DNA of 64,000 nt, from the IMG/VR virus record IMGVR_UViG_3300042881_004206. The stretch is one strand, 5' to 3'. A program made the translations under genes and the position numbers. Below are positions 47,679 through 61,304 of the stretch, piece after piece; position 1 is the first letter of the stretch; each line of letters begins with the position of its first letter. The stretch comes from a virus. Taxonomy: Duplodnaviria; Caudoviricetes. The notes under the pieces were generated by a model that saw only the letters and a program-made list of their open reading frames with translations, did no database searches and was not told the origin of the DNA.

Positions 47679-48284
47679 ATGTCCACTGATAATGATTTAC
47701 TAATTTATAATACAGAAGAATCTGTTATTGCATCAAATCAGAAACCAAAAATTTTAAAATTGGTTAATGAATCAGATTCTATTTTAAAAGAAGTTATGCC
47801 TAATTTTGATTTTTCAGATAAATCATTAAATGCTGTTGAGCTGGCAAATTCTTTGGTCGAATCGTGTAAGTTATATAAAGGTTATGGATTATCAGCCAAC
47901 CAATGTGGTATTAGGGCAAGAGTTTTCGTTATGGGTGCCGAGAATGAATATGTAGCATTTTTTAATCCTAAATTACTCTCATCAAAAGGAGAAATACACC
48001 TAGAAGAAGGTTGTTTATCTTTTCCACTTCTAGGATTAAGAGTTACCAGACCTAAAGAAATTGAAGTGGAATACCAAGACTACACTGGAACGACCAAGTA
48101 TATGAGATTGGATGGCATAAGTGCTAGAGTTTTTCTGCATGAGCTTGACCACATGAACGGAATAGTGTATACTGATCGCGCTAAACCATTGGCACTTGCC
48201 TCTGGTCAGAAAAAACGTCAGAAACTATTCAAGAATATTTTAAATAATGGTAAAAAAGTTCAAGAAGCCTATACCTACAGTTGA
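47679..48284 (+). CDS. def: Peptide deformylase
   Basis: GYGLSANQ, EGCLS and HELDH motifs. Confidence 0.94.
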   Translation: MSTDNDLLIYNTEESVIASNQKPKILKLVNESDSILKEVMPNFDFSDKSLNAVELANSLVESCKLYKGYGLSANQCGIRARVFVMGAENEYVAFFNPKLLSSKGEIHLEEGCLSFPLLGLRVTRPKEIEVEYQDYTGTTKYMRLDGISARVFLHELDHMNGIVYTDRAKPLALASGQKKRQKLFKNILNNGKKVQEAYTYS

Positions 48285-49524
48285 AGAACAATGGGATCAA
48301 TGGAAAACAATAAATGATCCCGTTCGTTTTACACACATTGGAACAGATACACTAAAAGAAGTCTTGGTAAAAGACTTGACTTATGCCTCACAAATGGATG
48401 TGAGAGAATACACTTTGTATCAAAAGTGGTGTGAAGTACATGAAAAGTATCCTACTGAAGTAAGAAACACCTTTGAAGGTGAACAGCTTGTGTTGCTTGA
48501 CCATAAACAAATGCGCACAGTCAATGAAGTCAAAGGTAAATTTTGGATGCCCAAAGAACCTGATGATTATCAGAATCTAAAGCCTAAATTGGTTCTTTCC
48601 AACGAAAAAGAAACCGATACTTGGAATACTATACGTACATTTTCTTCAACAATGAAGAATAACTCCAATATCGGCCGTAACTTATACTATACAGTAGTTG
48701 ATGATGTTACTGGAAACTATCTTGGTGTTATTTGTATATCATCCGATTTCTTGGATTTGACTCCGAGAGATAATGCAATTGGTTGGTCTAGAGATGTTAA
48801 GACCAAACAAAACATGATTAACCACACAGCAATAGGTTCGACCATTGTTCCTTTACAACCACTAGGTTACAATTACATGGGTGGAAAATTACTCGCTTTG
48901 TTATGCCTGGCTGATACTGTACAGAGTGATTGGAAACAAAAATATGGTGATGTTCTGGTTGGTGTCACAACAACATCACTTTATGGAAATACTAAATCAA
49001 ATGGACTTTCACAGTATGACGGTTTAGAACATTGGAATAAGATGGGTTTCTCCAGTGGTTCAGTTGCATTCGAACCCACAAGAAAAACCATGAATATGGT
49101 CTTCGACTGGATTAAAGAGAACCATACACGTAAGTATTTCGAATGGTGGGAAGCAAAAAATCCTCAAGGATTACCACTGAAACGAGATCACAAAAACCGT
49201 TCTCTAAATTTTGCTTATTCAAAATTACAGATACCTAAGAACTTAATTCGTACCGAACATCAGAGAGGCATCTATTTTTCTCCTCTCTATGATAACACCA
49301 ATGAATTTTTGCGGAAAGAAATTGGTGAAGATAAACTGGTAAAATCATTTGATACCAGTGAAGAAACTTTGGCTAATATTTGGAAAACAAAATATGCCAA
49401 AGGTAGAATTTCAATGTTGAAAAAGAAGAACACGGTTTCCTATGAAAACCTATTCTATGATGACTTGATTTTCCTCTCTTGGGAAGAAACCAAAGAGAAA
49501 TATCTGCCACAAGTTGGCAGATAA
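48247..49524 (+). CDS. DUF4338/DruA-like protein (425 aa)
   Basis: 'LG.I...SD...L..RD..IGW', 'P.QP.G.N..GGKLLAL' and 'TTSLYG...SQY' resemble the DUF4338 family (from memory). Confidence 0.6.
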   Translation: MVKKFKKPIPTVEEQWDQWKTINDPVRFTHIGTDTLKEVLVKDLTYASQMDVREYTLYQKWCEVHEKYPTEVRNTFEGEQLVLLDHKQMRTVNEVKGKFWMPKEPDDYQNLKPKLVLSNEKETDTWNTIRTFSSTMKNNSNIGRNLYYTVVDDVTGNYLGVICISSDFLDLTPRDNAIGWSRDVKTKQNMINHTAIGSTIVPLQPLGYNYMGGKLLALLCLADTVQSDWKQKYGDVLVGVTTTSLYGNTKSNGLSQYDGLEHWNKMGFSSGSVAFEPTRKTMNMVFDWIKENHTRKYFEWWEAKNPQGLPLKRDHKNRSLNFAYSKLQIPKNLIRTEHQRGIYFSPLYDNTNEFLRKEIGEDKLVKSFDTSEETLANIWKTKYAKGRISMLKKKNTVSYENLFYDDLIFLSWEETKEKYLPQVGR

Positions 49525-49546: not shown

Positions 49547-49575
49547 TTGACAAGTTCACTATATAATAGTATGAT
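49547..49575 (+). promoter_or_regulatory. sigma70-type promoter for HTH gene
   Basis: TTGACA, 17 nt, TATGAT. Confidence 0.75.
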
Positions 49576-49630
49576 GTGAATTCTTGTTACAAACAAGGTT
49601 TTTTAATTTTATCATTTAGGAGTGATTATT

Positions 49631-57128: not shown

Positions 57129-57218
57129 GGAAACGTGTCCGAGCGGTTTATGGAACTGGTCTTGAAAACCAGCGTGTCAGAAATGGCACCGTGAGTTCGA
57201 ATCTCACCGTTTCCGCCA
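57129..57218 (+). tRNA. tRNA-Ser(TGA)
   Basis: Cloverleaf with long variable arm, loop CT-TGA-AA, G73 and encoded CCA. Confidence 0.95.
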
Positions 57219-57223
57219 TTAAA

Positions 57224-57315
57224 GGTGAGTTGGCTGAGTGGTCGAAAGCAGCAGTTTGCTAAACTGTCCTCCTCTTTAAACGGGAGCATAGGTTCGAATC
57301 CTATACTCACCGCCA
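57224..57315 (+). tRNA. tRNA-Ser(GCT)
   Basis: Cloverleaf, loop TT-GCT-AA, long variable region, CCA. Confidence 0.93.
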
Positions 57316-57322
57316 AATCATC

Positions 57323-57412
57323 CCCGCCATAGCTCATGGAGAGCAGGAGCGCTTATAACGCTTTCGTCCAGATAAGACCCAGGATGTGGTTCGATTCCAC
57401 ATGGCGGGACCA
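57323..57412 (+). tRNA. Atypical tRNA-Ile(TAT) with 21-nt extra arm
   Basis: Acceptor CCCGCCA/TGGCGGG, D-stem GCTC/GAGC with 5-nt loop, anticodon stem GAGCG/CGCTT with loop CT-TAT-AA, T-arm TGTGG-TTCGATT-CCACA, A73, CCA. Confidence 0.75.
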
Positions 57413-57418
57413 AACAAA

Positions 57419-57496
57419 GGGCCGGTAGCTCATGCTGGTTAGAGCAGTGGACTCATAATCCATTGGTGGTCAGTTCGACTCTGACCCGGCCTACCA
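57419..57496 (+). tRNA. tRNA(CAT), probably Ile2 (lysidine type), otherwise Met
   Basis: Loop CT-CAT-AA. The acceptor has C4-G69/C5-G68 as in TilS substrates. Confidence 0.85.
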
Positions 57497-57502
57497 AATT
57501 TT

Positions 57503-57578
57503 GTATGCGTGACCCGAACGGTTAGGGAGCGGATTGCAAATCCGTTTTATGCAGGTTCGATTCCTGTCGCATACTCCA
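57503..57578 (+). tRNA. tRNA-Cys(GCA)
   Basis: Loop TT-GCA-AA, U73, CCA. Confidence 0.93.
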
Positions 57579-57581
57579 ATT

Positions 57582-57657
57582 GCTCGGTTCGTCTATCGGT
57601 TTAGGACGCTAGCCTTTCACGCTGGAAAGACGGGTTCGATTCCCGTACCGAGTGCCA
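57582..57657 (+). tRNA. tRNA-Glu(TTC)
   Basis: Loop CT-TTC-AC, CCA. Confidence 0.93.
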
Positions 57658-57775
57658 TTTGTTTTGCTGATTGTAAGCCATGGGCTTGATCATGCCCGAG
57701 TAACTGTGTACATAATTGCGGTAATTCTAGACTATCCCGCATGAGCACAGCAAATAGTGCAGTCAGCAAAACAAA
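57658..57775 (+). ncRNA. Unassigned 118-nt structured RNA between tRNA-Glu and tRNA-Lys
   Basis: 18-bp terminal helix (TTTGTTTTGCTGATTGTA / TGCAGTCAGCAAAACAAA, with G-U pairs) plus internal stems GGGC/GCCC, CTGTG/CACAG and TGCGG/CCGCA. Confidence 0.7.
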
Positions 57776-57776
57776 T

Positions 57777-57852
57777 GGGACGTTAGCTCAGTTGGTAGAG
57801 CAGTAGACTTTTAATCTATTGGTCGTGGGTTCGAACCCCGCACGTCCTACCA
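57777..57852 (+). tRNA. tRNA-Lys(TTT)
   Basis: Loop CT-TTT-AA, CCA. Confidence 0.95.
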
Positions 57853-57857
57853 AATAA

Positions 57858-57942
57858 GGAGAACGAGAAGCATTGGTGACTTCAGCAGACTGTAAATCTG
57901 TCGCCTCAGGCATACGGGGTTCGAATCCCTGGTTCTCCACCA
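57858..57942 (+). tRNA. tRNA-Tyr(GTA)
   Basis: Loop CT-GTA-AA, long variable arm, CCA. Confidence 0.93.
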
Positions 57943-57978
57943 TGGCCTCATTGAGGCCGCCATATATAATGGTTCAAT

Positions 57979-58053
57979 TCCCTAGTAGCTCAGCGGTAGA
58001 GCAGCAGACTGTTAATCTGTTGGTCCGTGGTTCGATCCCACGCTGGGGAGCCA
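57979..58053 (+). tRNA. tRNA-Asn(GTT)
   Basis: Loop CT-GTT-AA, G73, CCA. Confidence 0.95.
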
Positions 58054-58060
58054 GTTTTTT

Positions 58061-58138
58061 CGGGGTGTAGCACAGCCTGGTTAGTGCGCCTGCTTTGGGA
58101 GCAGGAGGTCGTGAGTTCGAATCCCACCACCCCGACCA
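58061..58138 (+). tRNA. tRNA-Pro(TGG)
   Basis: Loop TT-TGG-GA, C1-G72, CCA. Confidence 0.95.
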
Positions 58139-58147
58139 TATTAAAAA

Positions 58148-58221
58148 GCCCCTGTAGCATGAAGGTCGTGCAGTTGCCTTGTAAGCATCAGGTCCGTGTT
58201 CGATTCACGGTGGGGGCACCA
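58148..58221 (+). tRNA. tRNA-Thr(TGT)
   Basis: Loop CT-TGT-AA, CCA; one mismatch in the anticodon stem. Confidence 0.88.
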
Positions 58222-58227
58222 GACTTT

Positions 58228-58302
58228 GGGCTGCTAGTGATAATGGGAGCACGCCGCCTTTGCACGGCGGAGGTTGGAGTTCGATCCTCCAGCGGTCCAC
58301 CA
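58228..58302 (+). tRNA. tRNA-Ala(TGC)
   Basis: Loop TT-TGC-AC, G3-U70 identity pair, CCA. Confidence 0.93.
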
Positions 58303-58497
58303 AGAACGTGCCGTTTCGTCAACGGCTAGTCTGACCCGGACGATGAGAAGGTAGATGACGTCTACAGGGTGGTTCTGGTCCTACCGAACCAGCGCTGGCA
58401 ATGCGAGAACGGGACCTGTTGGGAAGCGGGTGGAAGGTGCAAGTGATGGCCTGCAGGCTTGATGCACTATAATTACCGCCAGGGTCCGTCAGAGCAT
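58303..58497 (+). ncRNA. ~195-nt highly structured RNA, manA-motif-like
   Basis: GC-rich spacer with many helices (GCCGTT/AACGGC, TCTGAC/GTCAGA, GTAGA/TCTAC, GGTTC/GAACC, GTGCA/TGCAC) and a pseudoknot GGTCC/GGACC. The family name is from recollection only. Confidence 0.7.
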
Positions 58498-58499
58498 AT

Positions 58500-58575
58500 G
58501 GTGATATAGCTCAACTGGTAGAGCACCTCCTTCATACGGAGACGGTTGTAGGCTCGGATCCTACTATCACCACCA
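58500..58575 (+). tRNA. tRNA-Met(CAT), elongator type, divergent T-loop
   Basis: Acceptor GGTGATA/TATCACC, loop TT-CAT-AC, T-loop CTCGGAT. Confidence 0.8.
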
Positions 58576-58583
58576 AATTTCAC

Positions 58584-58658
58584 ACCGACATAGCTCAGCG
58601 GTAGAGCAGCGTCTTGATAAGGCGTTGGTCGGTGGTTCAATCCCACCTGTCGGTACCA
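58584..58658 (+). tRNA. tRNA-Ile(GAT)
   Basis: Loop TT-GAT-AA, CCA. Confidence 0.93.
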
Positions 58659-58682
58659 TCGATTAAATATAAGGAGAATAAT

Positions 58683-58859
58683 ATGTCGGATGGAGGTAAA
58701 GGTTCTTCACCGAGACCGTATAGTGTCTCACATGAAGAATTTTCAAAAAATTGGGACAATATCTTTAAGAAAGATAAAGAACCAAAAAACGAAGAAGTAG
58801 AAGATAAATTAACTAGAAACAATGAAGAAACTCAATATATAAAGAGTATATCTCGCTAG
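58683..58859 (+). CDS. Small conserved phage protein (MSDGGKGS type, 58 aa)
   Basis: AAGGAG SD, then ATG at 58683. 'GGKGS.PRP.SV....F..NWD.IF' pattern. The stop overlaps the 5' end of tRNA-Trp. Confidence 0.7.
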   Translation: MSDGGKGSSPRPYSVSHEEFSKNWDNIFKKDKEPKNEEVEDKLTRNNEETQYIKSISR

Positions 58860-58923
58860 TGTAACGGCAGCATACCGGTCTCCAAAACCGTTGGTCGGGG
58901 TTCGAATCCCTGGCGAGGTGCCA
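58850..58923 (+). tRNA. tRNA-Trp(CCA)
   Basis: Loop CT-CCA-AA, G73, CCA. Confidence 0.9.
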
Positions 58924-58938
58924 ATAGAAAGGTTTATT

Positions 58939-59421
58939 ATGTTAAAACTCAACATTCAAGAGGTTAAGGATTTTATTCAATCACAAAGTCCGGATACTAA
59001 AATTTACCTTGGTGCAGACTCGGAAAGATTTCATATGAATGGTAAATGGTATGCTGATTACACTCTTGCTGTTGTAGTTCATATTGATGGTCGACATGGA
59101 TGTAAGATATTTGGTGAAGTTCATCGTGAGTTGGATTATGATCACAAGAAAAGCAAACCTGCTATGCGATTGATGAATGAAGTTTATAAAGTAGCAGATT
59201 TGTTTCACCAATTAATTGATGTGTTGGAAGATAGACATGTAGAAGTTCACCTGGATATTAATCCAGATGAGCACTATGGTTCTTCTTGCGTGGTGCAACA
59301 AGCAATAGGTTATATCAAAGGTACATGTGATGTTGTACCAATGGTGAAACCAAAAGCATTTGCTGCTTCATATGCAGCAGATAGACTGAAACATGTGATG
59401 GCTATGGCAAAAGTTGTTTAA
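58939..59421 (+). CDS. RNase H-like protein, YkuK/DUF458 type
   Basis: 'IYLG.DS', 'RL..EV' and 'EVHLD.N.....S...A.GY' with 'KP.A.AAS..AD'. The ATG at 58939 follows a GAAAGG SD. Confidence 0.75.
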   Translation: MLKLNIQEVKDFIQSQSPDTKIYLGADSERFHMNGKWYADYTLAVVVHIDGRHGCKIFGEVHRELDYDHKKSKPAMRLMNEVYKVADLFHQLIDVLEDRHVEVHLDINPDEHYGSSCVVQQAIGYIKGTCDVVPMVKPKAFAASYAADRLKHVMAMAKVV

Positions 59422-59422
59422 T

Positions 59423-59497
59423 GGTGTCTATGGTGTAGTGGAAGCATTGCTCTCTGTGAAAGAGTAGGTACGAGGTCGGTACTCGTTAGACACCCCA
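59423..59497 (+). tRNA. tRNA-His(GTG)
   Basis: G-1:C73, loop CT-GTG-AA, divergent T-loop GTCGGTA. Confidence 0.85.
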
Positions 59498-59512
59498 AAA
59501 TAAGGATTAATT

Positions 59513-59752
59513 ATGAAACCACTAGGTAATAATGTTATTGTGAAACGTGCAGAAAAAAATCTGACAACAGGTTCAGGTATTATTTTGCAAAGAAGTGATG
59601 AAGCCGATTATGGTGTCGTAGTGAATATTGGACCTGATGTTGTTGATGTGTCGATTTCAGACAAGGTACTGTTGGATTGGAATAAAGCACTTCAAATCGA
59701 TAAAGAAAATTATAAAATTTCAATTGATAGTATTATTGCTATCATTGAGTAA
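59513..59752 (+). CDS. groES: Co-chaperonin GroES (gp31-like role)
   Basis: 'MKPLGN.VIV', 'T.SGIIL' and 'G.VV..GP.V..V..GD.V'. Confidence 0.88.
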   Translation: MKPLGNNVIVKRAEKNLTTGSGIILQRSDEADYGVVVNIGPDVVDVSISDKVLLDWNKALQIDKENYKISIDSIIAIIE

Positions 59753-59759
59753 ATTTTAA

Positions 59760-59833
59760 GCCTCTTTAGTTTAATGGTAAAACTCCGCCCTTACAAGACG
59801 GTTACGGCAGTTCGATTCTGTCAAGAGGCACCA
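59760..59833 (+). tRNA. tRNA-Val(TAC)
   Basis: Loop CT-TAC-AA, CCA. Confidence 0.9.
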
Positions 59834-59844
59834 GGAGAGATAAA

Positions 59845-60036
59845 ATGTACATAGAAAGCATCCAAAAACTTTTTACCATTTGGCCTGTTTATACTAAAGA
59901 AACGGTATACAAAACATTGGTGGATCCTGTGACGGATAAAAAAGTTGTTGACATTGTGACTTATTATGTGTATAATGACAAAGCAAAAATTGATACGAAT
60001 GAAAACAACAAAACAAACATTGATGTAAAAGTTTAG
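59845..60036 (+). CDS. Hypothetical protein (63 aa)
   Basis: AGGAG SD. The stop codon's last base is G1 of tRNA-Leu. Confidence 0.6.
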   Translation: MYIESIQKLFTIWPVYTKETVYKTLVDPVTDKKVVDIVTYYVYNDKAKIDTNENNKTNIDVKV

Positions 60037-60112
60037 CCCCGGTGACGGAATTGGTATACGTGTTGGTCTTAGAAGCCAAATTTTAGGAGTTCGACTCTCC
60101 TCTGGGGCACCA
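60036..60112 (+). tRNA. tRNA-Leu(TAG) lacking the long variable arm
   Basis: Leu-type D-arm (ACG/CGT, GG..TA), loop CT-TAG-AA, A73; the variable region is only ATTTT. Confidence 0.85.
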
Positions 60113-60118
60113 AATAAA

Positions 60119-60193
60119 CTGGCCGTAGTATAATGGAGAATACAGTTGCCTTCTAAGCAATCAATCCAGGTTCGATTCCTGGCGGCCGGACCA
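60119..60193 (+). tRNA. tRNA-Arg(TCT)
   Basis: Loop CT-TCT-AA, CCA. Confidence 0.9.
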
Positions 60194-60198
60194 GATAT

Positions 60199-60283
60199 GC
60201 GACTGTGGTGAAATAGGTAGACACAAGAGACTTAAAATCTCTCGACTTCGGTCGTGCCGGTTCGATTCCGGCCAGTCGCACCA
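60199..60283 (+). tRNA. tRNA-Leu(TAA)
   Basis: Loop CT-TAA-AA, long variable arm with a UUCG loop, CCA. Confidence 0.95.
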
Positions 60284-60296
60284 TATATAGTAGTAT

Positions 60297-60370
60297 GCGG
60301 GATTAGTTTATCGGTAAAACGAAACCTTGCCAAGGTTTAGTGACCAGTTCGACTCTGGTATCCCGCTCCA
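60297..60370 (+). tRNA. tRNA-Gly(GCC)
   Basis: Loop TT-GCC-AA, U73, CCA. Confidence 0.93.
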
Positions 60371-60388
60371 AATATACCATAATAATTC

Positions 60389-60416
60389 TTGACTCTACAA
60401 ATTTTTCTGTTATAAT
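60389..60416 (+). promoter_or_regulatory. Internal sigma70 promoter for last two tRNA-like genes
   Basis: TTGACT, 16 nt, TATAAT with TGn extension. Confidence 0.7.
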
Positions 60417-60428
60417 TAATTCATAAAT

Positions 60429-60496
60429 GCGGTGTGTTGTAGAACAGAGTGGATGTCCAATTCACTTGCTTGGTGCAAACCCAAGACGCCGCTCCA
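60429..60496 (+). tRNA. Degenerate 68-nt tRNA-Gly(TCC)-like RNA (vestigial D-arm)
   Basis: Acceptor GCGGTGT/ACGCCGC with U73 and CCA. Stem GTGGA/TTCAC with loop TG-TCC-AA; T-like arm CTTGG-TGCAAAC-CCAAG. Confidence 0.6.
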
Positions 60497-60500
60497 AATG

Positions 60501-60575
60501 CGCGGGATGGAGAAGTGGCAACTCGCCAGCCTCATAAGCTGGAGATCGCAGGTTCAAATCCTGCTCCCGCAACCA
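60501..60575 (+). tRNA. tRNA-fMet(CAT)-like
   Basis: C1:A72 mismatch, loop CT-CAT-AA, ACCA end. Confidence 0.85.
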
Positions 60576-61304
60576 CTAAGAATGCAATTTAAATAAACTG
60601 AGTGCTTCCGGTATTCTTGTTTTTGTGTTCTGGCTTCCCAACAATATAACAATTCGTTGACTGATTCCATTTGTCAACATCATAGCAATACATCCACCAG
60701 ATGCTGTTATGAATCCAGTTTTACTTACAATAAATTCATATTGTTGAACCAACGGATTTGTATTGTTGTAGGTTAAAAATTTATTTTTTGTTGTTTGTAT
60801 TTTTATTGATGGCATTTTACTACTTTCAACAATTTCAGGATAATCTTTTGCCATCATTACAATTTTAATCAGTTCTTCAGCTGTACTGATATTCATTATA
60901 CTTAAACCTGTTGGTTCCACGAATCTGGTCTGTTCCAGGCCATGCATACGCATTTTTAGATTCATACTATAGATACACGCAGAAGTTCCACCAGGATAGT
61001 TCTCACATAATGTTACGGCCGCGGAATTACTTGAATTCACCATTGCCAATTGTATCAATTCTTTCCTTGTCAACTTACCTATTTTTTCATTTAGGTCTTG
61101 TTGTGCATCTAAAACAACCATCGATGTGACCAATTTTGTAATACTGGCAATCGACCTCACATCAGTTGTATTTTTACCTTCAATTATTTTGCCATTTTCG
61201 TCTGACACAATCCAGGCTTTTGCGGTAATAGGCTGTGTTGCGTTAACTGGTTCAGTATAAAATGCGGCGAAAACCAACAATAAAGAAATAATTTTGTATA
61301 GCAA
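60576..61304 (-). CDS. D-alanyl-D-alanine carboxypeptidase/endopeptidase (peptidase S11, PBP5/PBP7-like)
   Basis: Signal peptide plus SxxK (SITK), SxN (SSN) and KTG catalytic motifs; TTG start with a GGAG SD. Confidence 0.9.
   Translation of the reverse strand: MLYKIISLLLVFAAFYTEPVNATQPITAKAWIVSDENGKIIEGKNTTDVRSIASITKLVTSMVVLDAQQDLNEKIGKLTRKELIQLAMVNSSNSAAVTLCENYPGGTSACIYSMNLKMRMHGLEQTRFVEPTGLSIMNISTAEELIKIVMMAKDYPEIVESSKMPSIKIQTTKNKFLTYNNTNPLVQQYEFIVSKTGFITASGGCIAMMLTNGISQRIVILLGSQNTKTRIPEALSLFKLHS

What the first reader, a model, noticed from the sequence alone, without database searches (positions are those of the whole stretch)
60389..60496. Separately promoted 68-nt tRNA-Gly(UCC)-like RNA with vestigial D-arm: possible non-ribosomal glycine donor or decoy
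The Gly identity elements are intact (G1-C72, C2-G71, G3-C70, U73, CCA, central TCC). The D-arm is reduced to TGT-AGA-ACA, position 33 is G and the T-loop is TGCAAAC, all of which should impair ribosomal use. It has its own sigma70 promoter (60389-60416), which argues against a decayed pseudogene. Established: staphylococci use non-proteinogenic tRNA-Gly for cell-wall synthesis. Inference: this RNA could feed a tRNA-dependent transferase, or act as a decoy for tRNA-targeting defence. A peptidoglycan D,D-peptidase gene lies 80 nt away on the opposite strand.
Basis: partly seen in the sequence, partly recalled or inferred. Interest (0 to 1): 0.65.

Follow-up and report, generated by a model that had tools for sequence, protein, structure and literature searches.

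The report
Miniature phage glycine tRNA-like RNA
A lake-water T4-like phage encodes a conserved 68-base, shrunken glycine tRNA that keeps everything needed to be loaded with glycine but little of what the ribosome needs, so it most likely supplies glycine to some reaction other than protein synthesis.

Summary
Window 60429-60496 is a real RNA gene. ARAGORN and Rfam's tRNA model both miss it. I found 26 distinct relatives in uncultured freshwater T4-like phages and none in 185,579 prokaryote genomes.

All four helices are supported by covariation: 538 of 538 cells pair and 16 of 20 pairs show compensatory changes.

Only the GlyRS identity set is held throughout: G1-C72, C2-G71, G3-C70, U73, CCA, C35 and C36. 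Anticodons are UCC, CCC or ACC. The features needed for decoding are lost or vary: position 33 is G, C or U, the T-loop is UGC, and the T stems are predicted to bind EF-Tu weakly.

The gene usually lies beside an ordinary tRNA-Gly, or alone just after a DUF4338/DruA-like GNAT gene. That protein's best structural match is phage Mu Mom, which uses Gly-tRNA to modify DNA.

Best reading (0.42): a glycine carrier that works outside translation. The partner enzyme is inferred, not shown. The link to the neighbouring peptidase is not supported.

The scan had noted this same stretch once before (e1-5377346), not on other DNA.

The parts
60389..60416 (+). sigma70-type promoter (TTGACT, 16 nt, TG-TATAAT) driving the mini RNA and the tRNA-fMet-like gene behind it
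   Evidence: 11 of 12 consensus positions, TG present. The promoter is conserved in L001/L002, L008-L011 and L077, which have diverged elsewhere. Other lineages have TTGACA-17-TATAGT 9 nt before G1.
60429..60496 (+). 68-nt miniature tRNA-Gly(UCC)-like RNA. Acceptor 60429-35 with 60486-92. D stem 60436-38 with 60443-45, loop 60439-42. Anticodon stem 60447-53 with 60461-67, loop 60454-60, anticodon TCC 60456-58. T stem 60469-73 with 60481-85, T-loop TGCAAAC 60474-80. U73 at 60493 and CCA at 60494-96.
   Evidence: Sequence. Covariation. Covariance model R1 scores it 83 bits, the only such hit in the window.
60501..60575 (+). tRNA-Met(CAT) with a C1/A72 mismatch (initiator-like), 4 nt after the mini RNA's CCA and probably in the same transcript
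   Evidence: ARAGORN and Rfam. The mismatch is read directly.
60297..60370 (+). ordinary tRNA-Gly(GCC) upstream of the promoter. Ordinary tRNA-Gly genes are the mini RNA's nearest relatives among tRNAs.
   Evidence: R1 gives about 30 bits to tRNA-Gly genes and less to all other tRNAs.
48247..49524 (+). 425-aa DUF4338/DruA-like GNAT-fold protein, the candidate (inferred) user of the glycyl-RNA. In other phage lineages the mini RNA lies 25-135 nt after this gene.
   Evidence: Pfam PF14236, E 7e-21. Domain model with pLDDT 92.8. Best solved match is Mu Mom 8bv8, Z 11.1 with 168 residues aligned. Adjacency.
47679..48284 (+). peptide deformylase, conserved upstream neighbour of the GNAT gene (context only)
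   Evidence: Pfam PF01327. The same gene order occurs in Pelagibacter phages Mosig and HTVC008M.
60576..61304 (-). S11 D-Ala-D-Ala carboxypeptidase-like gene, convergent neighbour. I judge it unrelated to the RNA.
   Evidence: Pfam PF00768. The adjacency is not conserved outside the closest lineage.

Best explanation
The element is a functional, phage-encoded paralogue of tRNA-Gly that has been miniaturised to 65-70 nt. It is transcribed either from its own promoter or together with a neighbouring tRNA, and trimmed like a tRNA to a 5' G1 and an encoded 3' CCA. It folds into a compact cloverleaf that probably keeps the L shape: 7+5 (or 6+5) bp in the acceptor/T stack, 3+7 bp in the D/anticodon stack, and a D-loop G paired with T-loop C56. 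The host GlyRS charges it with glycine, because every known bacterial Gly identity element is kept. It has G, C or U at position 33, sometimes a pyrimidine at 37, an A34 or C34 anticodon in some members, no T-Psi-C, no G18G19 and a weak EF-Tu T stem. For these reasons it is largely kept out of ribosomal decoding, and it serves instead as a private pool of activated glycine for a tRNA-dependent transferase. The most likely user is the phage's DUF4338/DruA-like GNAT enzyme, working like Mu Mom, which moves glycine from Gly-tRNA onto DNA adenine. Shown: the gene family, its secondary structure, the pattern of what is and is not conserved, and its genomic contexts. Inferred: expression and processing, glycylation, exclusion from translation, and the identity of the partner enzyme.
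For: (1) Real and selected. There are 26 distinct family members, 21 close and 5 divergent; the 27-row alignment adds one ordinary tRNA-Gly. All 538 pair cells are standard pairs, 16 of 20 pairs have compensatory changes, and 0 of 500 shuffles reach this. The D stem changes GTT/AAC to GGT/ACC, GTG/CAC and GTA/TAC.
(2) What is invariant is the GlyRS identity set: G1-C72, C2-G71, G3-C70, U73, CCA, C35 and C36 (the set is listed in PMC7826273). Anticodons are UCC, CCC and ACC, all glycine, and one phage carries UCC and CCC minis in tandem.
(3) Decoding features are lost or free to vary. Position 33 is G in 23 members, C in 2 and U in 1. Position 37 is C in four members. T-loops are UGCRAAY, UGAGAAU or AGCAAAG, never UUC.
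(4) All 21 close members have A-U or U-A at pair 51-63. Their predicted EF-Tu ddG is +0.6 to +1.1 kcal/mol, against -0.6 to +0.5 for ordinary tRNA-Gly genes in the same loci (using the table in PMC3239215).
(5) The same UGC-for-UUC change and weak EF-Tu binding mark the staphylococcal non-proteogenic tRNA-Gly (PMC7826273).
(6) It co-exists with ordinary tRNA-Gly(UCC), often 5-6 nt away, so it is not needed as a decoder.
(7) Partner. In at least 13 loci from several lineages the RNA stands alone 25-135 nt after the DUF4338 GNAT gene, with no other tRNA in the locus. Eight of 10 large IMG/VR records that carry this gene also carry a mini. The GNAT domain's top match among 48,161 chains is Mu Mom: Z 11.1, 168 of 202 residues aligned, and the highest Foldseek TMq at 0.43. 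Mom is a Gly-tRNA-dependent DNA modifier (PMC13219725).
Against: There are no expression, charging or EF-Tu data. G33 does not by itself prevent decoding (Candida tRNA-Ser(CAG); PMC5041475, PMC11415595). The predicted EF-Tu weakening is only about 1 kcal/mol. The model behind it was built on full-size tRNAs.
The partner link is weak. Mom stands within 1 Z unit of ordinary acetyltransferases. Profile comparisons with Mu Mom and the Melnitz Mom homologue find nothing. Pfam's Mom family PF25680 is not matched. In 80 loci of the window's own clade the mini is not within 3 kb of the GNAT gene; in the window it lies 11 kb away. Pelagibacter phages Mosig and HTVC008M have the GNAT gene but no mini, so the enzyme does not need it. 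The site after the GNAT gene is an intergenic spot in a conserved syntenic block, so the adjacency could be incidental.
Confidence: 0.42

Rival explanations
1. It is an unusual but working translational tRNA-Gly. It is charged, delivered by EF-Tu and reads GGN codons, perhaps inefficiently or in a special context, much as D-arm-reduced mitochondrial tRNAs and the G33-bearing Candida tRNA-Ser(CAG) still decode.
For: It has a full Gly identity set, CCA and a 7-nt loop with an NCC anticodon. The stack lengths are close to a normal tRNA, and a G19-C56-like contact seems to be kept. It sits in tRNA arrays in tRNA-like spacing. There is precedent for G33 decoders (PMC5041475, PMC11415595).
Against: An ordinary tRNA-Gly(UCC) lies next to it in many phages, so the decoder role is already filled. 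Some members have A34 with C33 and C37, or a 6-bp acceptor with a bulged purine. Every close member has a weak 51-63 pair, and Psi55 is impossible because position 55 is G. Bacterial ribosomes and EF-Tu are not known to accept D-arm-reduced tRNAs.
Confidence: 0.2
2. It is a decoy or sponge for a host defence that acts on tRNA-Gly or on tRNA ends in general. Candidates are GNAT toxins that acetylate Gly-tRNA-Gly, anticodon or acceptor nucleases, and CCA-modifying toxins. It would protect the working tRNA pool, or itself be resistant.
For: Phage tRNAs with altered anticodon loops are proposed to evade tRNA-targeting defences (PMC10264068, PMC11555353). The acceptor end and the C35/C36 part of the loop are conserved while position 33 is altered. 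A strong promoter precedes it in several lineages.
Against: No defence that targets tRNA-Gly anticodon loops is known to me. A stoichiometric decoy for an enzyme is inefficient. Conservation of the whole GlyRS identity set, including C35 and C36 across three different anticodons, fits charging better than mimicry of one target. No anti-defence partner gene is linked to it.
Confidence: 0.17
3. It acts through its tRNA shape and carries no amino acid. It could be a processing or stability handle for the neighbouring tRNA transcript, a regulator that binds a tRNA-sensing protein or RNA, or a partner of another phage protein, like the unexplained stable RNAs of the T4 tRNA cluster.
For: It is often the first gene of a unit and is followed within 3-6 nt by a tRNA. 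The same arrays hold other unclassified structured RNAs at 57658-57776 and 58303-58499.
Against: It also occurs alone, with no tRNA behind it, and after rather than before tRNA-Gly. A processing handle would not need U73, G1-C72, C2-G71, G3-C70 and C35/C36 to stay fixed while the rest co-varies.
Confidence: 0.12
4. It is a decaying tRNA-Gly pseudogene with no function.
For: Standard tRNA finders reject it.
Against: There are 26 distinct variants with perfect pairing and many compensatory changes, conserved loops and conserved promoters.
Confidence: 0.01

Closest known systems
Non-proteogenic tRNA-Gly(UCC) NP1-NP3 of Staphylococcus aureus / tRNA-Gly Ia, Ib of S. epidermidis (glycine donors for FmhB/FemA/FemB; PMC7826273)
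   Same: Extra tRNA-Gly paralogues sit beside normal ones. The Gly identity set and a UCC anticodon are kept. TGC or TGT replaces TTC in the T-loop, so there is no Psi55. There is no G18G19. T stems bind EF-Tu weakly. The proposed role is a glycine donor outside translation.
   Different: The staphylococcal tRNAs are full-size cloverleaves with a normal D arm and U33, are chromosomal, and have a proven Fem partner. This RNA is 65-70 nt with a 3-bp D stem and 4-nt loop, a 7-bp anticodon stem and G33. It is phage-encoded, and no Fem gene was seen. The likeness is convergent, not descent.
D-arm-lacking or reduced mitochondrial tRNAs (mammalian mt-tRNA-Ser(AGY), nematode and mite minimal tRNAs; PMC7609411, PMC6158502)
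   Same: A shrunken D region is compensated by a longer anticodon stem, and overall length is below 70 nt.
   Different: Those RNAs decode on specialised mitoribosomes with adapted EF-Tu. This one lives in a bacterial cell beside a complete set of normal tRNAs. In the papers I searched I found no description of such a tRNA in a phage or bacterium.
Phage Mu Mom with host Gly-tRNA-Gly (PMC13219725)
   Same: A phage GNAT-fold enzyme paired with glycyl-tRNA is a proven way to hypermodify DNA. The phage GNAT studied here has Mom as its best solved structural match.
   Different: Mu uses host tRNA and encodes none. The protein here belongs to Pfam DruA/DUF4338, not to Pfam Mom, and shows no detectable sequence similarity to Mom. 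Its substrate and donor are unknown.
Phage T4 species 1 and 2 RNAs (rnaC, rnaD) and B. cereus tRNA-Other
   Same: These are small stable tRNA-like RNAs. The T4 ones are encoded within a tRNA cluster. None has a decoding role (my own knowledge; tRNA-Other is mentioned in PMC5389517).
   Different: They have different sizes and folds and no glycine identity. I made no sequence or structure comparison with them here.
Candida tRNA-Ser(CAG) and other natural G33/A33 tRNAs (PMC5041475, PMC11415595)
   Same: G replaces the near-universal U33.
   Different: They are full-size decoders. There G33 tunes decoding or charging and does not remove the tRNA from translation.

Membership tests
Canonical elongator tRNA (Rfam RF00005) | Scores at or above the family threshold of 29 bits, or is called by a tRNA finder | tested here: not met
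   No RF00005 match even at E<=10. Not called by ARAGORN.
Canonical elongator tRNA (Rfam RF00005) | 4-bp D stem with a 7-11-nt loop carrying G18G19 | tested here: not met
   The D stem has 3 bp and a 4-nt NUAG loop, with no U8/N9 connector.
Canonical elongator tRNA (Rfam RF00005) | U33 and a purine at 37 in a 7-nt anticodon loop on a 5-bp stem | tested here: not met
   The window copy has G33. Across the family position 33 is G, C or U and position 37 is A or C. The stem has 7 bp.
Canonical elongator tRNA (Rfam RF00005) | T-loop T54-Psi55-C56 (TTC in DNA) | tested here: not met
   T-loops are TGCAAAC, TGCGAAT, TGAGAAT or AGCAAAG.
Canonical elongator tRNA (Rfam RF00005) | 7-bp acceptor plus 5-bp T stem, a discriminator base and a 3' CCA | tested here: met
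   The window copy has 7+5 bp, U73 and an encoded CCA. One subgroup has 6+5 bp with a bulged purine.
Substrates of bacterial GlyRS (tRNA-Gly identity) | G1-C72, C2-G71, G3-C70, U73, C35 and C36 | tested here: met
   These are invariant in the 26 family members and the one ordinary tRNA-Gly aligned with them. The set is as listed in PMC7826273.
Substrates of bacterial GlyRS (tRNA-Gly identity) | Is actually glycylated | not testable with these tools
   Needs an in vitro charging assay or an acid-gel northern.
Staphylococcal-type non-proteogenic tRNA-Gly | TGC or TGT instead of TTC in the T-loop, and weak EF-Tu binding | tested here: met
   TGC T-loop. Predicted ddG of +0.6 to +1.1 kcal/mol. Actual binding was not measured.
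Staphylococcal-type non-proteogenic tRNA-Gly | Full-size cloverleaf of the staphylococcal lineage, used by Fem transferases | tested here: not met
   The architecture is miniature, and the RNA occurs in phages of uncultured freshwater hosts. Of the window ORFs I scanned, none matched Pfam FemAB, but only part of the genome was visible.
Mom-type tRNA-dependent DNA-modifying GNAT (for the proposed partner, 48247-49524) | GNAT fold with a helical insertion before the last strand | tested here: met
   Domain model at pLDDT 92.8. Helices at model residues 180-227 lie between strands 165-171 and 240-247. Mu Mom 8bv8 is the top match at Z 11.1, with chain residues 20-230 aligned.
Mom-type tRNA-dependent DNA-modifying GNAT (for the proposed partner, 48247-49524) | Sequence membership (Pfam PF25680, or profile similarity to Mom) | tested here: not met
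   Only PF14236 DruA matches. hhalign probability is 1% or less.
Mom-type tRNA-dependent DNA-modifying GNAT (for the proposed partner, 48247-49524) | Equivalents of the catalytic residues R111, S124, D149, R151; use of Gly-tRNA; a DNA product | not tested
   No residue-level superposition was available. This needs biochemistry.

The most novel reading that the evidence does not exclude
Freshwater T4-like phages carry a two-part DNA (or other macromolecule) glycylation system. One part is a DUF4338/DruA-family GNAT that works like Mu Mom. The other is a dedicated, translation-insulated mini tRNA-Gly that feeds it, so the phage can modify its target without draining or depending on the host's decoding tRNA-Gly pool. 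If true, this would also point to an aminoacyl-tRNA-dependent activity for DruA of the Druantia type I defence system, whose biochemistry is unknown.
Probability: 0.2. Interest if true: 0.92.

Novelty: new variant of a known kind. Interest (0 to 1): 0.78.

Why it matters
In the papers I searched, tRNAs shrunk below the standard cloverleaf are described only in animal mitochondria. Dedicated non-translational tRNAs are known from very few bacteria; the one examined here is the staphylococcal tRNA-Gly. This finding is a widespread phage family that combines both traits and is invisible to standard tRNA finders.

It offers a natural minimal substrate for GlyRS. It also gives a concrete, testable link to the newly discovered use of Gly-tRNA for DNA hypermodification, and possibly a first biochemical handle on the DUF4338/DruA family.

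Practically, phage tRNA censuses undercount such genes.

Tried and rejected
1. Exact 30-mer and 19-mer scans of IMG/VR found nothing. So did a search for relatives of the neighbouring peptidase. Relatives were reached through the RNaseH-like ORF inside the tRNA array and then through a loop-anchored degenerate pattern.
2. Of the 96 metagenome pattern matches, most were chance: 80 pattern matches across the loci then held lacked the acceptor and CCA features.
3. The first genome-contig scan used the wrong spacing. The corrected scan also found nothing. That pattern is strict, so divergent members would be missed.
4. Its central G is the variable loop base, and C17 pairs with G8.
5. TGT/queuosine idea (UGU in the loop): dropped, because the tandem copy has UGC and divergent members lack it.
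6. Reading the loop as a shifted GUC (Asp) anticodon: dropped, because the closing pair co-varies.
7. Link to the S11 peptidase or the envelope cassette: not conserved.
8. No TROVE gene was seen among the ORFs scanned, and the RNA is a complete cloverleaf rather than a Y-RNA module.
9. Sequence kinship of the GNAT with Mom was sought by phmmer and hmmsearch against PDB, by hhalign with 10- and 38-sequence profiles, and by a Pfam Mom search of five phage records. All were negative.
10. The cultured relatives Mosig, HTVC008M and Melnitz have no mini, so I found no cultured phage that carries it.

Full report
**What the window is.** The large ORFs match T4-type core genes: terminase, tail sheath, portal, scaffold, major head protein, gp41-type helicase and gp46-type nuclease. 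The major capsid protein is at most 65% identical to any phage in the collection; the nearest are Methylophilales phage Melnitz and Pelagibacter phage Mosig. No whole genome is held for the window. Positions 57129-60575 hold 22 tRNA genes with encoded CCA ends, interspersed with small ORFs and unclassified structured RNAs.

**The observation.** It is preceded by TTGACT-16-TG-TATAAT at 60389-60416, one of three near-consensus promoters in the array. It is followed after 4 nt by a tRNA-Met with a C1/A72 mismatch. ARAGORN does not call it, and the Rfam tRNA model gives no match even at E<=10. On its own the RNA folds only modestly better than shuffles (z = -2.35), so the case rests on comparison with relatives.

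**Relatives.** Direct DNA searches failed at first. Relatives of the RNaseH-like ORF inside the array led to contigs with homologous arrays. Copies of the element at 87-88% identity already showed compensatory changes in the anticodon stem. A pattern anchored on the invariant D region and anticodon loop then found more:
- 9 loci in IMG/VR;
- about 20 true loci among 96 matches in metagenomes;
- none in one genome for each of 185,579 prokaryote species (with a strict pattern).

A covariance model (R1) then found divergent members in further IMG/VR records. In the window R1 hits only 60429-60496 (83 bits). The next best hits everywhere are ordinary tRNA-Gly genes at about 30 bits. The element is therefore a derivative of tRNA-Gly.

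**Structure.** On the MAFFT alignment of 21 distinct sequences, every one of 420 pair cells is a standard pair. Twelve of 20 pairs show changes on both sides, 0 of 500 shuffles reach any measure, and slid controls pair in 30-52% of cells. On a model-fitted alignment of the 26 members plus one ordinary tRNA-Gly (which leans towards the model), 538 of 538 cells pair and 16 of 20 pairs are compensatory. These include all three D-stem pairs: GTT/AAC changes to GGT/ACC, GTG/CAC and GTA/TAC. The architecture is:
- acceptor stem of 7 bp, or 6 bp plus a bulged purine in one large subgroup;
- no 8/9 connector;
- D stem of 3 bp with loop NUAG, followed by one purine;
- anticodon stem of 7 bp with a 7-nt loop;
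- 1-3 variable nucleotides;
- T stem of 5 bp with a 7-nt loop;
- U73 and CCA.

The D/anticodon stack (3+7 bp) is about as long as in a normal tRNA (4+1+5); this is my inference. The last D-loop base is G wherever T-loop position 56 is C, and both members with A56 lack that G. This suggests the G19-C56 elbow contact is kept.

**What selection keeps and what it lets go.** Invariant across all members are G1-C72, C2-G71, G3-C70, U73, CCA, C35 and C36. That is exactly the identity set quoted for glycylation (PMC7826273). The wobble base varies (U, C, A), always giving a glycine anticodon, and one phage carries UCC and CCC minis in tandem. By contrast:
- position 33 is G in most members, C in two and U in one;
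- position 37 is C in four members;
- the T-loop never has the TTC that becomes T-Psi-C;
- there is no G18G19.

All 21 close members have A-U or U-A at pair 51-63. Using the table of Schrader and Uhlenbeck (PMC3239215), their T stems score +0.6 to +1.1 kcal/mol. Ordinary tRNA-Gly genes in the same loci score -0.6 to +0.5. That paper singles out weak-binding tRNAs as candidate amino-acid donors outside translation. The staphylococcal non-proteogenic tRNA-Gly share the TGC/TGT T-loop and poor EF-Tu binding (PMC7826273). One caution applies: G33 alone does not exclude decoding, as Candida tRNA-Ser(CAG) shows (PMC5041475, PMC11415595).

**Contexts.** There are four contexts:
- (a) Directly before or after an ordinary tRNA-Gly(UCC), 5-6 nt apart. 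When it comes after, it has no promoter of its own.
- (b) Promoter, then mini, then tRNA-fMet. This is the arrangement in the window, L001/2, L008-11 and L077.
- (c) Before tRNA-Asn or tRNA-Gly(GCC).
- (d) Alone behind its own promoter, with no ARAGORN tRNA in the locus. Here it lies 25-135 nt after a gene of about 430 aa in Pfam DruA/DUF4338, which is itself preceded by peptide deformylase.

The peptidase neighbour exists only in the window's closest lineage. So this phage too appears to have an ordinary decoder.

**The candidate partner.** The window has the same GNAT gene at 48247-49524 (PF14236, E 7e-21), 11 kb upstream of the mini. The family is very common in these phages, with 3,676 relatives at E<=1e-5. 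A first full-length model (pLDDT 75) matched only GNAT-fold proteins: AAC(6') at Z 8.3, Mu Mom at 7.9, FemA at 7.3 and FemX at 7.1. A domain model built on 38 diverse sequences reached pLDDT 92.8. Its best match among 48,161 chains is phage Mu Mom:
- 8bv8, Z 11.1, rmsd 3.7 A, 168 of 202 residues aligned;
- the aligned range runs across Mom's helical insertion;
- ordinary acetyltransferases follow at Z 10.7-9.1;
- Mom also has the highest Foldseek TM-score on the query, 0.43.

Mom was recently shown to transfer glycine from Gly-tRNA-Gly onto N6 of adenine in dsDNA, with all three E. coli isoacceptors accepted (PMC13219725). This makes a glycyl-RNA plus GNAT pairing in a phage mechanistically credible.

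The link remains an inference, for several reasons:
- There is no sequence-level similarity to Mom.
- No Pfam Mom gene was found in five related records.
- No mini lies within 3 kb of the GNAT gene in 80 loci of the window's own clade.
- Eight of 10 larger records with the gene do hold a mini somewhere.
- The cultured Pelagibacter phages Mosig and HTVC008M have the gene but no mini.

If the pairing is real, the mini is an optional booster or insulator, not a requirement.

**Verdict.** The element is certainly a functional RNA gene of a new, phage-restricted family derived from tRNA-Gly. Most likely (about 0.4) it is charged with glycine and serves outside normal decoding. The Mom-like GNAT as its user is the most interesting reading still open (about 0.2). 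Rival readings are an odd but translating tRNA (0.2), a decoy against tRNA-directed defence (0.17) and a shape-only role (0.12). A pseudogene is excluded. I found no description of such an RNA in the papers searched.

Noticed in passing
window 57323-57412: ARAGORN calls a 90-nt tRNA-Ile(TAT) with a long extra arm that Rfam's tRNA model does not match. The same gene is present in relatives (L001, L004, L007, L008, L103).
   Followed up: no
window 57658-57776: About 118 nt between tRNA-Glu and tRNA-Lys is closed by a long helix (TTTTGCTGA.../...TCAGCAAAA). No Rfam family matches it.
   Followed up: no
window 58303-58499; L004:6520-6722: A GC-rich RNA-like spacer of about 197 nt has no Rfam match. 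In relative L004 a homologous copy lies between tRNA-Gly(GCC) and tRNA-fMet, the slot that the mini RNA occupies in the window.
   Followed up: partly
window 49547-49600: Right after the DUF4338 GNAT gene there is a consensus promoter (TTGACA-17-TATAAT), followed within about 20 nt by a short hairpin and a T run. This is the site where other phage lineages carry the mini RNA. It could be a tiny transcript or a leftover of a relocation.
   Followed up: no
L025:6126-6263: Two mini RNAs sit in tandem, 4 nt apart, with loops TGTCCAA (UCC) and TGCCCAA (CCC).
   Followed up: partly
L209:1501-1567, L220:1501-1568, L221:1501-1567 (minus strand): A divergent subgroup of the family has an ACC anticodon, C or U at position 33, C at position 37 and T-loops AGCAAAG or TGAGAAT.
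   Followed up: partly
window 57943-57978 versus L001:3937-4011: The near-identical relative L001 has a tRNA-Asp(GTC) between tRNA-Tyr and tRNA-Asn. The window lacks it there, and ARAGORN finds no tRNA-Asp, Phe or Gln in the window.
   Followed up: no
G001:C1:48783-49154, G003:C1:59255-59662, G004:C1:102956-103351: Related phage records carry a second, shorter (about 370 aa) paralogue of the DruA/DUF4338 family about 20-25 kb from the first.
   Followed up: no
window 58939-59421 and 59513-59752: An RNaseH-like (PF04308, YkuK/DUF458) gene and a GroES-like (Cpn10) gene are embedded in the tRNA array. In several relatives the GroES-like gene starts about 15 nt after the mini RNA.
   Followed up: no
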